Shown here piece by piece: positions 45,855 to 48,881 of a stretch of 64,000 nt of DNA (positions within the stretch are counted from its first letter, which is position 1; each line of letters opens with the position of its first letter). The position numbers and the translations under genes were made by a program. This DNA comes from a virus (Duplodnaviria > Caudoviricetes): the IMG/VR virus record IMGVR_UViG_3300044842_000203, positions 47,567 through 111,566 of that record. One strand, written 5' to 3'. Under the pieces are notes generated by a model, which made no database searches, had not been told where the DNA came from, and saw only the letters and a list, made by a program, of their open reading frames with translations.

Positions 45855-46402
45855 TCGCCGAACCTGCACACGACCCGGAAAGGACCGAACAACTTGACCT
45901 CACCCGCCACGACACCACCGGTGTCCGCCGAGCCGGAGCAGGCCCCCGCTGGTCCCCCGAGCCCACCCCCGACTTTCACCCCCATCTTCGACCAGTTGTG
46001 TCGGGACATCGGCCCTTTGATGCGGCAGAAGGCGGTCGACGCACGGATAGATCCGAGCGACCCGCTGGGCAGCACGCCAAAGACAGATCCACCAAAGCAC
46101 GCCGACCTGAGCGACGACGAATAGCTCCAGACTGGATGCACCGAGCCTATGCGCACCTGCGCGGCTGGTTCTGGGTTGATTGCCCCGTGTGCGGCCAGCA
46201 GTTCGGCGGGCATGAGTGGCGCCGCATGGACCGGGCTGCTGATCGGGGCATGGGGCACATCGCCACATTGTGGACCCCGCCCGATGAGCCGCTGGCGGAG
46301 ATCTGCCCGGCGTGCACGATGCGCGGCGAGGGCTGCATCTCGCACGCCCGTCACGGCAACCGGCATGCTCGCTGCCCCTACCTGTTCGCGCTGCCACAGT
46401 AG
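45851..46402 (+). CDS. Hypothetical protein, 5' part uncertain
   Basis: ATGA-coupled; CPVCGQQFGGHEW...CPAC. Confidence 0.5.
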   Translation: MIAEPAHDPERTEQLDLTRHDTTGVRRAGAGPRWSPEPTPDFHPHLRPVVSGHRPFDAAEGGRRTDRSERPAGQHAKDRSTKARRPERRRIAPDWMHRAYAHLRGWFWVDCPVCGQQFGGHEWRRMDRAADRGMGHIATLWTPPDEPLAEICPACTMRGEGCISHARHGNRHARCPYLFALPQ

Positions 46403-46407
46403 CTCGC

Positions 46408-46875
46408 ATGGACATCACCGTGCCGATGGTCAGCGCCACAGGTGTCCCGCTGTCGGGGCGACTGATCTACGACCCGGTTCGCAATCCGCTGGCGATTGAC
46501 CTGATTCTTAGCTGCATCACGGGTGAGGTGTTCCCGATCGCCCGGCAGTTGGTCGCCGAGGCGTATGCGCATTCCCCGGTGCTGCTCGGCCTGGGTGCGC
46601 GGGTGCAGATGCAGATCCGGGACAGGCAGACCACGGTGATCGTGCTGTTCCCCCGAGAGGCGCCCGCGCAGATGTTCTACCTCTCGACGCAGTCCCTGTT
46701 GACGTTCGTGACGGGCACTCGGCAGTTGACGGAGCCGTGCGTGGAGGGGGTGTGTGAGCAAGCGGGGTGTTTTGAGTGCGCGTGGCTGCGCAGGCAGATC
46801 CCCGCCTGCTCCTGCGGGGTGGTAGACTGCAACTCGTTCCGGCCTGTTGAGTGTCCGCCCGAGGAGGATCTGTGA
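46408..46875 (+). CDS. SsgA-like protein with C-terminal Cys-rich motif
   Basis: GRLIYDPVRNPLAIDL, FPIARQLV, LLTFVTGTRQL. Confidence 0.6.
   Translation: MDITVPMVSATGVPLSGRLIYDPVRNPLAIDLILSCITGEVFPIARQLVAEAYAHSPVLLGLGARVQMQIRDRQTTVIVLFPREAPAQMFYLSTQSLLTFVTGTRQLTEPCVEGVCEQAGCFECAWLRRQIPACSCGVVDCNSFRPVECPPEEDL
46823..46842 (+). promoter_or_regulatory. Motif promoter TAGACT-N7-GTTCCGG
   Basis: Upstream of GAGGAGG-GTG 46872. Confidence 0.75.
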
Positions 46876-47006
46876 AGGCACCCATCAAGCGCGTGCGCGC
46901 CTACTACCGCGACCGCGATGTCGTCTGGTGGATCAGCTATGTAGTGGCCTGTCTCTGCTGGCTCATCGTGATCGGCTGCATGGTTGACCTGGTGTGGCCG
47001 CTATAG
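46872..47006 (+). CDS. 44-aa membrane protein
   Basis: GAGGAGG RBS, one TM. Confidence 0.55.
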   Translation: MKAPIKRVRAYYRDRDVVWWISYVVACLCWLIVIGCMVDLVWPL

Positions 47007-47067
47007 CCATGGGCGCGCGGCTGCAAAAAGTGTCGCGCAGATTATCGAACGGAGGAGGTGGTCGAAG

Positions 47068-48781
47068 ATGGGAGAACTCACGCCCGATACAGTGCACTTG
47101 TTAGCTAGCGGACAAATCGAGCGTATTTGGGGTCCTCCCGGTTAGCACCGGGAAATCCACCAAGCTCAAAGAGCGCATCAAAGACGCGGTGGCCGAACAC
47201 GGGGCCGACGCCGTAGCGGTCACCTCGTTCACCGTTACCGCCGCGCGCTCCATCGCCCAGATGGATCTATCCCTACCCGATCACGCCGTCGGCACACTGC
47301 ACTCACTGGCCTACCGGGCCATCGGGCACCCCGACGTCGCACTCGACAAAAAGGTCATCGCCGACTGGAACAAGCGCGTCGGCTTCGAGTGGCGCATCAC
47401 CCCCGACTCCCGCCGGGGCGCCCCCGACGCCGACCAGGGCGGCCGGGACTCCGGCGATGCCCTGCTGGCCGCCTACGACATGCTGCGATCTCAACTGACC
47501 CCACCGGAGGCGATGCCTGCCGATGTGCGCCGTTTCGCCGCAGCCTGGGATGGGTGGAAACGCGAGGCCGGTGGCTGTGTGGATTACACAGACATGATCT
47601 CTATGGCGTTGCAGCAGGCCCTGGAGGGGCAGAAGGCGCCCGGCGCCCCAAAGGTGCTGATCTCCGACGAGGCGCAGGATATGACCCCGCTGGAGACGGC
47701 GCTGCTGCTGGCGTGGCGGGCGCCGCACACCATCTTCGCCCTCGACGACGACCAGGCCATCAATGAGTGGCGCGGTGGAGACGCTGGCCCGATCCTGCTC
47801 ATGGAAGACAGTGACGACTGCGCTATCACCGATACACCACTTGAGCAGTCGTGGCGGATTCCCGCCGCGGTGCACATGATCGCCCAAACGTGGATTGAGC
47901 AGTGCTCATTTCGCCGCGACAAGGAGTACCGGCCGCGGGACTACGACGGTCGCGCCTACGCGGTGCGCTACCCGATCGAGCATCAGGCCACCGCGGAGGC
48001 CATCGCCAACGATGTGCACGCTGGGCGGTCCGTGATGGCCATCGCTTCGTGCGAGTACATGCTGCGTGTCCTGATCTCGAACCTGCGCCGACTCGGGGTG
48101 CCTTATGCCAACCGCTACCGGCCCGCGGAGGGGCGCTGGAATCCGTTGTACTCAGCGACGGGCATGACCACGGCGGAGCGCCTGTACCGCTACCTGGTGC
48201 TTGATGAGCGCGCCCTGGGGGCTGATTCGCGGCTGTGGACCGGCGATGACGTGCGCGCATGGCTGGAGTTGGTGGGGGTGAAAGAGGCCCGGCTCGCGAA
48301 GGGCGCGAAAGCGAAAGCGAAGAACTTCCCCGCCGGGGAGCTGGACGTGGCGCAGGTTATTGGCATGTTCGCCGACGAGGACGCTTTTGGGGACGCCACT
48401 GAACCGTCCCTGAATTGGCTACTGAACGCGGCGAAGGGCATCAAGGGCATGGTGGGCACGGCGACCGAGCCGGGCAAGCTCGACTATCCGGCCCGGATCG
48501 CTACCCAGTTTGGTCCGGCTGCGCTGGTCGACGAGCCACTGTGCACGGTGGGGACAATTCATAGCGTGAAAGGCGCGGAGGCTGATGTTGTATATCTCAG
48601 CCCGAGCTTGTCGCCGGCCGGGCATTCTGAGTGGATGCGTAATCGGCGGGGCCGGGATGCGACGCGCCGACTCATGTATGTGGGCTTGACCAGGGCGAAG
48701 CAGACGTGCGTGGTGCTGTCTTCGACGGAGGCGCACGTGCGCCCGAGTGAGTTGTGCCCGCCAGAAATGAGTGTGCGATGA
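47068..48781 (+). CDS. UvrD/Rep-like SF1A helicase with Walker A split by 4 nt (recoded or pseudogene)
   Basis: GPPG-TAG-C-TGKST; intact DEAQD, DDDQAI, LEQSWR, TIHSVKGAE, YVGLTRA. Confidence 0.85.
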
Positions 48782-48881
48782 GTATTTACTTCGACAGCCG
48801 AGACTGGTGGGTGGGTCTTTATATCGGGCCGAACCATCTTTACTTCTGCCCATTGCCGACATTGGTGATCAGGATTAAGCG

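What the first reader, a model, noticed from the sequence alone, without database searches (positions are those of the whole stretch)
47068..47161. UvrD Walker A split by a 4-nt stop-containing hairpin loop: candidate ribosomal bypass
Seen: a strong RBS (GGAGGAGGT) and ATG 47068 give MGELTPDTVHLLASGQIERIWGPPG, then TAG C, then TGKSTKLK in the +1 frame, continuous with the 530-aa ORF. Removing exactly TAGC (47143-47146) restores GPPGTGKST. Those four bases are the loop of a 7-bp stem TCCCGGT/ACCGGGA. The downstream helicase motifs are intact. A simple +1 slip leaves one extra P-loop residue. Known: T4 gene 60 bypassing uses a Gly take-off codon followed by UAG in a hairpin. Inference: a stop-hop from GGU to AGC or RNA-level excision controls helicase expression. 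A recent mutation or assembly error is the null explanation.
Basis: partly seen in the sequence, partly recalled or inferred. Interest (0 to 1): 0.8.

Follow-up and report, generated by a model that had tools for sequence, protein, structure and literature searches.

The report
Four-base stop insert splitting helicase P-loop
A phage helicase gene is cut in two by four extra bases (a stop codon plus C) in the middle of its ATP-binding motif; the same kind of insert sits at the same spot in two other, distantly related phages and is linked to a homing-endonuclease gene, so it looks like a selfish-DNA "immunity scar" that ribosomes probably hop over rather than a random mutation.

Summary
ATG 47068 opens 25 codons ending GGT, then TAG+C (47143-47146), then ACC GGG AAA in the +1 frame. 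Skipping exactly four bases gives GPPGTGKST. It is not an assembly error: a second assembler reproduces it.

A 75%-identical helicase on an unrelated metagenome contig (L006) carries the identical 27-mer with TAGC. A 33%-identical helicase in another viral contig (L046) has GGT TGA C ACC at the same junction.

The nearest relatives (99%, 98% and 87% identity) are uninterrupted. In this phage, TAGC is the right end of a 140-nt imported patch (47005-47144). The patch starts with the last ~20 codons of an HNH endonuclease gene that is intact just upstream of the helicase in L006.

Between the two TAGC alleles the N-terminal codons show pS 0.64 against pN 0.10. With the four bases skipped, the window's protein keeps all 123 highly conserved residues.

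Best reading (about 0.55): this is a homing-endonuclease-linked, target-disrupting micro-insert, as in T4 mobA/gene 60, decoded by a +4 stop-hop. The hop is inferred, not shown, and there is no matched landing codon. The main rival is a dead allele driven by the endonuclease. The same stretch was also noted from an overlapping window of this genome.

The parts
47005..47144 (+). Imported 140-nt patch that replaces 71 nt in the closest relatives
   Evidence: tables 5 and 8: contigs of three other runs (X3, X5, X9) match 46400-47004 and 47145 onward at 96-100%. Between those points they hold 71 other letters. 2+71+2 = 75 nt = 25 codons, so in those relatives the helicase ATG probably overlaps the upstream ORF's stop (inference from the arithmetic). 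GC3 is 0.48 in the patch's codons against 0.80 just after it.
47007..47069 (+). 3' remnant (about 20 codons, reads PWARGCKKCRADYRTEEVVED) of an HNH homing endonuclease gene
   Evidence: It aligns with the 3' end of the intact HNH ORF of L006 (NWARGCRECRTSYRKGVVGNG), 67% nt identity. The L006 ORF matches phrog_826 HNH endonuclease at E 2.4e-32. No similarity exists upstream of 47005. pN/pS is about 0.8, which fits a dead remnant.
47051..47059 (+). Shine-Dalgarno GGAGGAGGT for helicase part 1
   Evidence: Read directly, 8 nt before ATG 47068. The homologous position in L006 is GGGGGTGG.
47068..47142 (+). Helicase ORF part 1: 25 codons ending WGPPG (first half of Walker A)
   Evidence: 23 of 25 residues are identical to the N-terminus of uninterrupted P0121 and P0001. 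Against the L006 allele pS is 0.64 and pN 0.10, binomial p 6e-4.
47140..47142 (+). GGT, last sense codon before the stop (proposed take-off codon)
   Evidence: It is GGT in all three interrupted alleles. It is GGC in most GC-rich uninterrupted relatives.
47143..47146 (+). The 4-nt insert TAGC: in-frame UAG stop plus C
   Evidence: Absent from all uninterrupted homologues. Identical in L006. TGAC at the same place in L046.
47136..47153 (+). Hairpin TCCCGGT-TAGC-ACCGGGA (7 bp, 4-nt loop)
   Evidence: It forms in the minimum-energy fold of all three interrupted alleles. Local z-scores are -3.0, -0.6 and 0.05, so it is not consistently more stable than shuffled sequence.
47147..48781 (+). Helicase ORF part 2: 544 codons from TGKST (second half of Walker A) to the stop
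   Evidence: Pfam UvrD_C_2, UvrD-helicase, AAA_19. phrog_1967 DNA helicase at E 1.5e-40. With the 4 nt skipped, there are 0 deviations at 123 columns that are at least 95% conserved in 119 homologues.
47150..47152 (+). GGG, the nearest cognate Gly codon downstream (alternative landing site, +10)
   Evidence: Read. A matched hop GGU to GGG would give GPPGKST, two residues short of every homologue's P-loop.

Best explanation
TAGC is a genuine, inherited micro-insert in the Walker A codons of a phage SF1 (UvrD-like) helicase gene. It reached this phage as the right-hand end of a 140-nt gene-conversion patch. The donor was a relative in which an HNH homing endonuclease gene lies directly upstream of the helicase. 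The patch carries the last ~20 codons of that endonuclease gene, a new ribosome-binding site, re-coded helicase codons 1-25 and the four extra bases.

Most likely the endonuclease cuts the conserved P-loop coding sequence of insert-free helicase genes (inferred). The insert would then make its carrier immune, as argued for the 50-nt gap of T4 gene 60 and MobA.

The helicase would still be made because some ribosomes skip the four bases and resume at ACC. These ribosomes would be paused with Gly-tRNA on GGU after a Pro-Pro-Gly stretch, facing a stop codon in the weak 'stop + C' context. The product would carry the canonical GPPGTGKST (inferred, a +4 stop-hop).

Shown: the insert, its recurrence, the patch, the HNH linkage, and the selection signals on both halves. 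Inferred: the endonuclease's target, the immunity, and the hop.
For: 1. Recurrence at one junction. The window and L006 share the identical 27-mer with TAGC, although their helicases are 75% identical. L046, 33% identical, has GGT TGA C ACC at the same junction. Its truncated ORF was seen on 4 contigs. The two inserts differ, but both are 'stop + C'. The +1-frame codon changes from Ser (AGC) to Asp (GAC) while the zero-frame codon stays a stop.

2. Selection. For N-terminal codons of the window against L006, pS is 0.64 and pN 0.10 (p 6e-4). Fourfold sites in the core differ at 0 of 6, against 58 of 119 in the flanks. The conceptual protein has 0 of 123 deviations at conserved columns in the window and 1 of 70 in L006; the homologue median is 1.

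3. HNH linkage. An intact HNH ORF lies upstream in L006 (phrog_826 E 2.4e-32). Its GC is 0.49 against 0.67 for the helicase. The window holds its 3' remnant. Patch boundaries are at 47004/47005 and 47144/47145, within flanks 96-100% identical to insert-free relatives. GC3 steps up at the insert in both alleles.

4. Other family members have N-termini that fit further designs at the same Gly|Thr junction: 5-, 7- and 8-nt gaps beginning with TGA, the 5-nt and 7-nt readings compatible with a landing codon that matches the take-off codon. These are P0149, P0176, P0247, P0204 and P0011. This is inferred from protein only.

5. Precedent. Short gaps in the Streptomyces phage Hau3 terminase were read here. 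PMC10732093 reports mass-spectrometry support for bypassing there. The MobA/gene 60 cassette is described in PMC5009743 and in bioRxiv 10.1101/2022.08.31.505936.
Against: No product or RNA was observed. The landing triplet does not match the take-off codon (AGC in the window, GAC in L046, each 2 of 3 pairs with a Gly GCC anticodon). Every well-studied bypass has a matched landing codon. The nearest cognate codon (GGG, +10) would give a P-loop two residues short.

The nearest relatives of both the window (99%) and L046 (87%) are uninterrupted, so each carrier may have gained the insert recently. An intact downstream ORF is then weak evidence. The window and L046 carry no HNH gene of this family, and L046 shows no remnant.

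The hairpin is mostly dictated by the codons and is not consistently stable. The selection test rests on 24 codons and two alleles. It also assumes that TAGC predates their divergence. The endonuclease's cleavage site is unknown.
Confidence: 0.55

Rival explanations
1. Dead allele. The insert is a knock-out of a dispensable helicase, created or selected because it resists a homing endonuclease. Gene conversion spreads it, and no full-length helicase is made.
For: The closest relatives are uninterrupted. There is no matched landing codon. The HNH gene itself is already deleted down to a remnant in the window. The downstream ORF is 98.5-99% identical to insert-free relatives, so it could be too young to have decayed. 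Two of the three window-specific differences listed change an amino acid, though both sites are variable.
Against: A neutral scar would not keep a stop codon through a TAG/TGA difference, nor keep the following C, in helicases only 33% identical. N-terminal codons upstream of the stop show strong purifying selection between the two TAGC alleles. No conserved residue is lost. Other members show inserts with matched take-off and landing codons, which a knock-out does not need.
Confidence: 0.27
2. Conventional +1 frameshift of the prfB type at GGU UAG C. The product would be GPPG-S-TGKST (GPPG-D-TGKTT in L046), with a nine-residue P-loop.
For: A stop codon followed by C is the classical weak-termination context of the RF2 frameshift site (PMC5009743 and PMC10732093). 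A G-rich SD-like GGGGU lies upstream in the window.
Against: The extra residue differs between alleles (Ser against Asp). None of about 230 homologues with a readable motif has an extra P-loop residue. The SD-like element ends 9 nt before the stop, against 6 nt reported for prfB, and it is absent in L046. GGU re-pairs poorly on GUU.
Confidence: 0.08
3. Canonical matched-codon hop of 10 nt, from GGU (47140) to GGG (47150), resuming at AAA. The gap length would be the same as in phage Hau3.
For: This is the first cognate Gly codon downstream in both the window and L046. The Hau3 gaps are 10 nt with matched codons, GGC..GGT and TCT..TCC.
Against: The product GPPGKST lacks two invariant P-loop residues. 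The codons ACC GGG would then be non-coding, yet they are exactly the codons of the missing residues.
Confidence: 0.05
4. Sequencing or assembly artefact, or removal of the four bases at RNA or DNA level.
For: Palindromes can trouble library preparation. No read-level data could be examined, because the runs are held as contigs.
Against: Two assemblers agree at depth ~69. The same site is interrupted in two other data sets with different surrounding sequence. No known RNA-processing system removes 4 nt, and no repeat exists for slippage.
Confidence: 0.03

Closest known systems
Phage T4 gene 60 coding gap with the MobA homing endonuclease cassette (Bonocora et al. 2011, cited in PMC5009743; Manning & Atkins, bioRxiv 10.1101/2022.08.31.505936)
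   Same: A non-coding insert begins with a stop codon right after a Gly take-off codon, inside a conserved DNA-metabolism gene. It travels with a free-standing homing endonuclease gene placed just 5' of the interrupted gene. Close relatives lack both. Carriers that have lost the endonuclease exist, as in the 'hit and run' cases described in the preprint.
   Different: The gap is 4 nt, not 50. There is no matched landing codon and no gap-internal SD. The endonuclease is of the HNH_3/phrog_826 type, not MobA. The target gene is an SF1 helicase, cut inside its Walker A motif. Bypassing is not demonstrated here.
Streptomyces phage Hau3 large terminase, 10-nt gaps (7 nt in two prophages) (Smith et al. 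2013; Antonov et al. 2023, PMC10732093)
   Same: Very short frame-breaking inserts sit at highly conserved protein junctions in phages of GC-rich hosts. Only skipping the insert restores the conserved motif. One Hau3 gap also takes off from a Gly codon.
   Different: Hau3 uses the rare sense codon UUA in the A site and has matched take-off and landing codons (GGC..GGT, TCT..TCC). Here the A-site codon is a stop, the gap is 4 nt and there is no match. No endonuclease link is reported for Hau3.
Synthetic 'stop-hops' and +5/+6 hops in E. coli (Weiss et al. 1987, as summarised in PMC5009743)
   Same: Peptidyl-tRNA detaches at a stop codon and re-pairs a few bases downstream.
   Different: Those hops need a matched codon after the stop and are inefficient laboratory constructs. 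PMC5009743 reports no known natural case of in-frame stop hopping.
RF2 (prfB) programmed +1 frameshift
   Same: Stop codon followed by C, with a G-rich element upstream.
   Different: A +1 shift here would add a non-conserved residue to the P-loop. The spacing of the SD-like element differs, and the element is absent in L046.

Membership tests
Programmed translational bypassing (gene 60 type) | Two ORF parts that give the conserved protein only if a defined block is skipped | tested here: met
   Skipping 47143-47146 gives GPPGTGKST, as in 114 of 123 held proteins. There are 0 of 123 deviations at conserved columns.
Programmed translational bypassing (gene 60 type) | Stop or slow-to-decode codon immediately 3' of the take-off codon | tested here: met
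   UAG in the window and L006, UGA in L046, each followed by C.
Programmed translational bypassing (gene 60 type) | Landing triplet at the 3' end of the gap cognate to the take-off codon | tested here: not met
   Take-off is GGU. The last three gap bases are AGC (window, L006) or GAC (L046). The first cognate codon, GGG, is at +10 and gives a shortened P-loop.
Programmed translational bypassing (gene 60 type) | Stem-loop at the take-off site that contains the stop codon | tested here: inconclusive
   The hairpin forms in all three alleles, but 6 of its pairs follow from the Pro-Gly/Thr-Gly codons. Stems of this size occur 14 times in the genome. Z-scores range from -3.0 to 0.05.
Programmed translational bypassing (gene 60 type) | Full-length product spanning the gap is made | not testable with these tools
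   No RNA-holding run was listed and no proteomics is available.
Homing-endonuclease mobile cassette with a protective insert | Free-standing endonuclease gene adjacent to the interrupted gene, with sporadic distribution and foreign composition | tested here: met
   L006 has an HNH ORF (phrog_826 E 2.4e-32) directly upstream, with GC 0.49 against 0.67. It is absent from insert-free relatives. Only a remnant remains in the window. Neither gene nor remnant is present in L046.
Homing-endonuclease mobile cassette with a protective insert | Gene-conversion tract running from the endonuclease gene to the insert | tested here: met
   The 140-nt patch 47005-47144 lies inside flanks 96-100% identical to insert-free relatives. 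GC3 steps at the insert.
Homing-endonuclease mobile cassette with a protective insert | The endonuclease cuts the insert-free site and spares the interrupted one | not testable with these tools
   This needs an enzyme assay.
prfB-type +1 frameshift | The +1 product is the conserved, functional protein | tested here: not met
   A +1 shift adds Ser (window) or Asp (L046) to the P-loop. No homologue has a nine-residue P-loop.
Hau3-type UUA-triggered bypass | Rare UUA codon in the A site at take-off | tested here: not met
   The zero-frame codon is UAG or UGA. UUA occurs only out of frame in GGUUAGC and is UUG in L046.
SF1 UvrD-like helicase | UvrD N- and C-terminal domains and Walker A GxxGxGK[ST] | tested here: met
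   Pfam PF00580, PF13245, PF13538 and PF13361 score above their cut-offs. phrog_1967 matches. Walker A is complete only when the two parts are joined.

The most novel reading that the evidence does not exclude
Phage SF1 helicase genes harbour a family of ultra-short (4-8 nt) coding gaps that begin with a stop codon, all at the Gly|Thr junction of Walker A. Homing-endonuclease-driven gene conversion seeds and spreads them. The 4-nt form (GGU-stop-C-ACC) would be decoded by a ribosomal +4 hop that needs no cognate landing codon. That would be the shortest natural bypass and the first without a matched landing site.
Probability: 0.4. Interest if true: 0.9.

Novelty: new variant of a known kind. 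Interest (0 to 1): 0.8.

Why it matters
Natural translational bypassing is known from very few systems: T4 gene 60 and its relatives, yeast mitochondrial byps, and the Hau3 terminase. Why such gaps exist is still debated.

This locus offers a second, independent case in which a coding gap travels with a homing endonuclease. That makes the 'gap as immunity to the endonuclease' idea directly testable, with a small enzyme and an 18-nt target.

The gap is only four bases and has no matched landing codon. If the helicase is made, it would show that peptidyl-tRNA re-pairing is not obligatory for short hops.

There is also a practical consequence. Gene callers truncate these helicases (530 instead of 569 residues here). 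Phage annotation pipelines would therefore misreport them as N-terminally short or broken.

Tried and rejected
The DNA of the closest uninterrupted relatives (P0121, P0001) and of the protein-inferred interrupted alleles (P0149, P0176, P0204, P0011, P0250, P0035) could not be fetched.
- No RNA holder was listed among sequencing runs. All laid runs were contigs, so no read-level minority variants could be seen. The 71 letters that replace the patch in relatives were not shown.
- Megablast and blastn against isolate phages found nothing useful. The phage has no close cultured relative.
- The exact-core pattern scan gave 0 hits in IMG/VR and 2 chance hits in GTDB genomes, neither in a P-loop gene. 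The downstream 24-mer gave 0 hits.
- The generalised pattern gave 9 hits, of which 8 were chance.
- HNH relatives in IMG/VR (29-37% identity) are not next to helicases.
- A search for small ORFs ending in GPPG found no candidates.
- No tRNA or suppressor tRNA is present in the genome.
- No HNH of this family is present elsewhere in G000 or in L046's record.
- Smith et al. 2013 (PMC3807479) is not held.
- Rejected: a restriction-site fill-in origin, because TAGC is not a duplication of neighbouring bases.
- Rejected: termination-reinitiation, because there is no start codon before GTG 47189, which lies after the P-loop.
- Rejected: a UUA/bldA effect, because UUA is out of frame and absent in L046.

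Full report
**The observation**

The letters are as described. GGAGGAGGT lies at 47051-47059 and ATG at 47068. Twenty-five codons end in TGG GGT CCT CCC GGT. TAG follows at 47143-47145, then C at 47146, then ACC GGG AAA TCC ACC in the +1 frame. That frame stays open for 544 codons up to the stop codon ending at 48781.

The downstream part is an SF1 UvrD-like helicase: Pfam PF00580, PF13245, PF13538 and PF13361, and phrog_1967. The window is the last 64 kb of a 111,566-nt IMG/VR virus record estimated 92% complete. It has no close cultured relative.

**Homologues**

The nearest proteins are P0121 (569 aa, about 99% identical) and P0001 (568 aa, 98%). Both read MSELTPETVHLLASGQIERIWGPPGTGKST without a break, as do P0003 to P0008. 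Of the 123 proteins then held, 114 have GPPG[TCA]GK[ST], and none has an extra P-loop residue. The window therefore carries a 4-nt insertion relative to its family. Only removal of exactly four bases restores the motif.

**Not an artefact**

The Logan assembly of the probable source run gives a 12,091-nt contig identical across 46400-48800 at depth about 69. It is the same sample, so this excludes an assembler error only.

**An imported patch**

Contigs of related phages in three other runs align at 96-100% to 46400-47004 and again from 47145 onward. Window 47005-47144 (140 nt) is replaced in them by 71 other letters (tables 5 and 8). Since 2+71+2 = 75 nt = 25 codons, their helicase ATG most likely overlaps the stop of the upstream 51-codon ORF; this is an inference. 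The window thus holds a foreign patch whose right edge is the insert. GC3 is 0.48 in the patch's 25 codons, 0.80 in the next 25, and 0.81 over the rest of the gene.

**A second allele and an endonuclease**

L006 is a 1,465-nt contig from an unrelated metagenome assembly. Its helicase is 75% identical. It contains the identical 27-mer TGGGGTCCTCCCGGTTAGCACCGGGAA with TAGC.

Directly upstream lies an ORF with HNH motifs. It matches phrog_826 'HNH endonuclease' at E 2.4e-32; the Pfam HNH_3 match is below its cut-off. Its GC is 0.49, against 0.67 for the helicase.

The window's 63-nt 'spacer' (47005-47067) aligns with the last ~20 codons of this gene: PWARGCKKCRADYRTEEVVED against NWARGCRECRTSYRKGVVGNG. 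Similarity stops at 47005. The window therefore keeps a 3' stump of the endonuclease gene. No other copy exists in the genome.

**A third allele**

A generalised scan of IMG/VR returned one real hit among nine. L046 comes from a 61-kb viral contig. Its helicase is 33% identical to the window's and reads VDEFTQLGECRLIGPPG, then TGA C, then TGKTTFLARQIE in the +1 frame: GGT TGA C ACC GGG AAA. Its truncated ORF occurs on four contigs. Its 87% relative P0125 is uninterrupted and has the same N-terminus. Its upstream neighbour is a DNA methyltransferase, not an HNH gene.

The two inserts differ by two bases, but both are 'stop + C'. The +1-frame triplet changes from AGC (Ser) to GAC (Asp).

**Selection**

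- N-terminal codons, window against L006: pS 0.64 and pN 0.10, binomial p 6e-4.
- Fourfold sites in the core differ at 0 of 6, against 58 of 119 in the flanks.
- With the four bases skipped, the window's protein deviates at 0 of 123 columns that are at least 95% conserved in 119 homologues. L006 deviates at 1 of 70. The homologue median is 1.
- The HNH stump has pN/pS of about 0.8, as expected for a remnant.

Two caveats apply. The test covers 24 codons and two alleles. It also assumes that TAGC is older than their divergence.

**Other designs, inferred from proteins only**

Several homologues start at or just before TGK, or read an odd peptide upstream of it.

- P0149/P0244 and P0176: the upstream residues are compatible, one base out of frame, with GPPG followed by Thr or Met/Ile and then a stop or Leu/Ser. 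The background rate for such GPPG compatibility is 0.4% of windows. This implies a 5-nt gap, compatible with ACN UGA C.. and with matched Thr codons.
- P0247 (ATG ACN) and P0011/P0249 (ATG AAR GGN ACN) must each contain TGA at that spot. P0011 fits an 8-nt gap, with the Gly codon GGN lying just before ACN.
- P0204 fits GGA UGA Y GGN ACN, a 7-nt gap with matched Gly codons.
- Cluster mates of some of these are uninterrupted.

If DNA confirms these readings, matched-codon designs at the same junction argue that hopping is how this family copes with such inserts.

**Mechanism**

Only a +4 skip gives the canonical P-loop.

- A +1 shift adds a non-conserved residue.
- A hop to the first cognate Gly codon (GGG, +10) removes two invariant residues.
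- Reinitiation is excluded, because no start codon precedes GTG 47189.

The hairpin forms in all three alleles, but it is largely implied by the codons CCC GGT / ACC GGG and is not unusual in number. The landing triplet pairs at only 2 of 3 positions with a Gly GCC anticodon.

Known features that could favour a hop are the Pro-Pro-Gly stretch (a known stalling motif; from general knowledge, not tested here) and the weak 'stop + C' context (PMC5009743; PMC10732093). No tRNA gene is present in the genome.

**Comparison with known systems**

The closest parallel is T4 gene 60 with mobA (preprint). Next come the Hau3 terminase gaps. I read these directly as GGC[TTACTCCGGT]AAG and TCT[TTAACGGTCC]ACG. 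They have mass-spectrometry support.

The present case differs in four ways: gap length (4 nt), a stop codon rather than UUA, the absence of a matched landing codon, and the target (Walker A of a helicase).

**Verdict**

The insert is real, recurrent and linked to a homing endonuclease. Decoding by a hop is the best-supported but unproven reading (about 0.55). A dead allele driven by the endonuclease is the main rival (about 0.27).

Noticed in passing
Proteins P0149/P0244, P0247, P0176, P0204, P0011/P0249 (no DNA held): N-termini of these helicase homologues fit other short TGA-containing gaps (5, 7 and 8 nt) at the same Gly|Thr junction of Walker A; the 5-nt and 7-nt readings are compatible with matched take-off and landing codons. 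Uninterrupted sequences sit in the same 90% clusters.
   Followed up: partly
Proteins P0250/P0030, P0035, P0192: Gene calls start a few residues downstream of the P-loop, although the contigs are long (37 kb and 13 kb). A cluster mate (P0251) has the full N-terminus. These may be further interrupted alleles.
   Followed up: no
Protein P0016 (911 aa): This helicase homologue carries an insertion of roughly 330 residues that starts with Cys after AVDF and looks like an intein. It would be another mobile element in this gene family, at a different site.
   Followed up: no
L006:1-44: The contig begins with an Illumina TruSeq adapter sequence. Its first bases, and the called 5' end of the HNH ORF, are therefore not phage DNA.
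   Followed up: no
window 46851-47006: A 51-codon ORF with a hydrophobic C-terminal half ends in TAG exactly at the left edge of the patch. The HNH remnant continues in the same frame immediately after this stop.
   Followed up: no
L038 (phage Hau3) 2602-2625 and 2912-2935: Both Hau3 terminase gaps are 10 nt, start with TTA and end with a codon synonymous with the take-off codon. The record annotates the region only as a misc_feature.
   Followed up: yes
L046:4675-5565 (minus strand): A DNA methyltransferase gene (phrog_498, phrog_12517) ends about 35 nt before the start of the interrupted helicase.
   Followed up: partly
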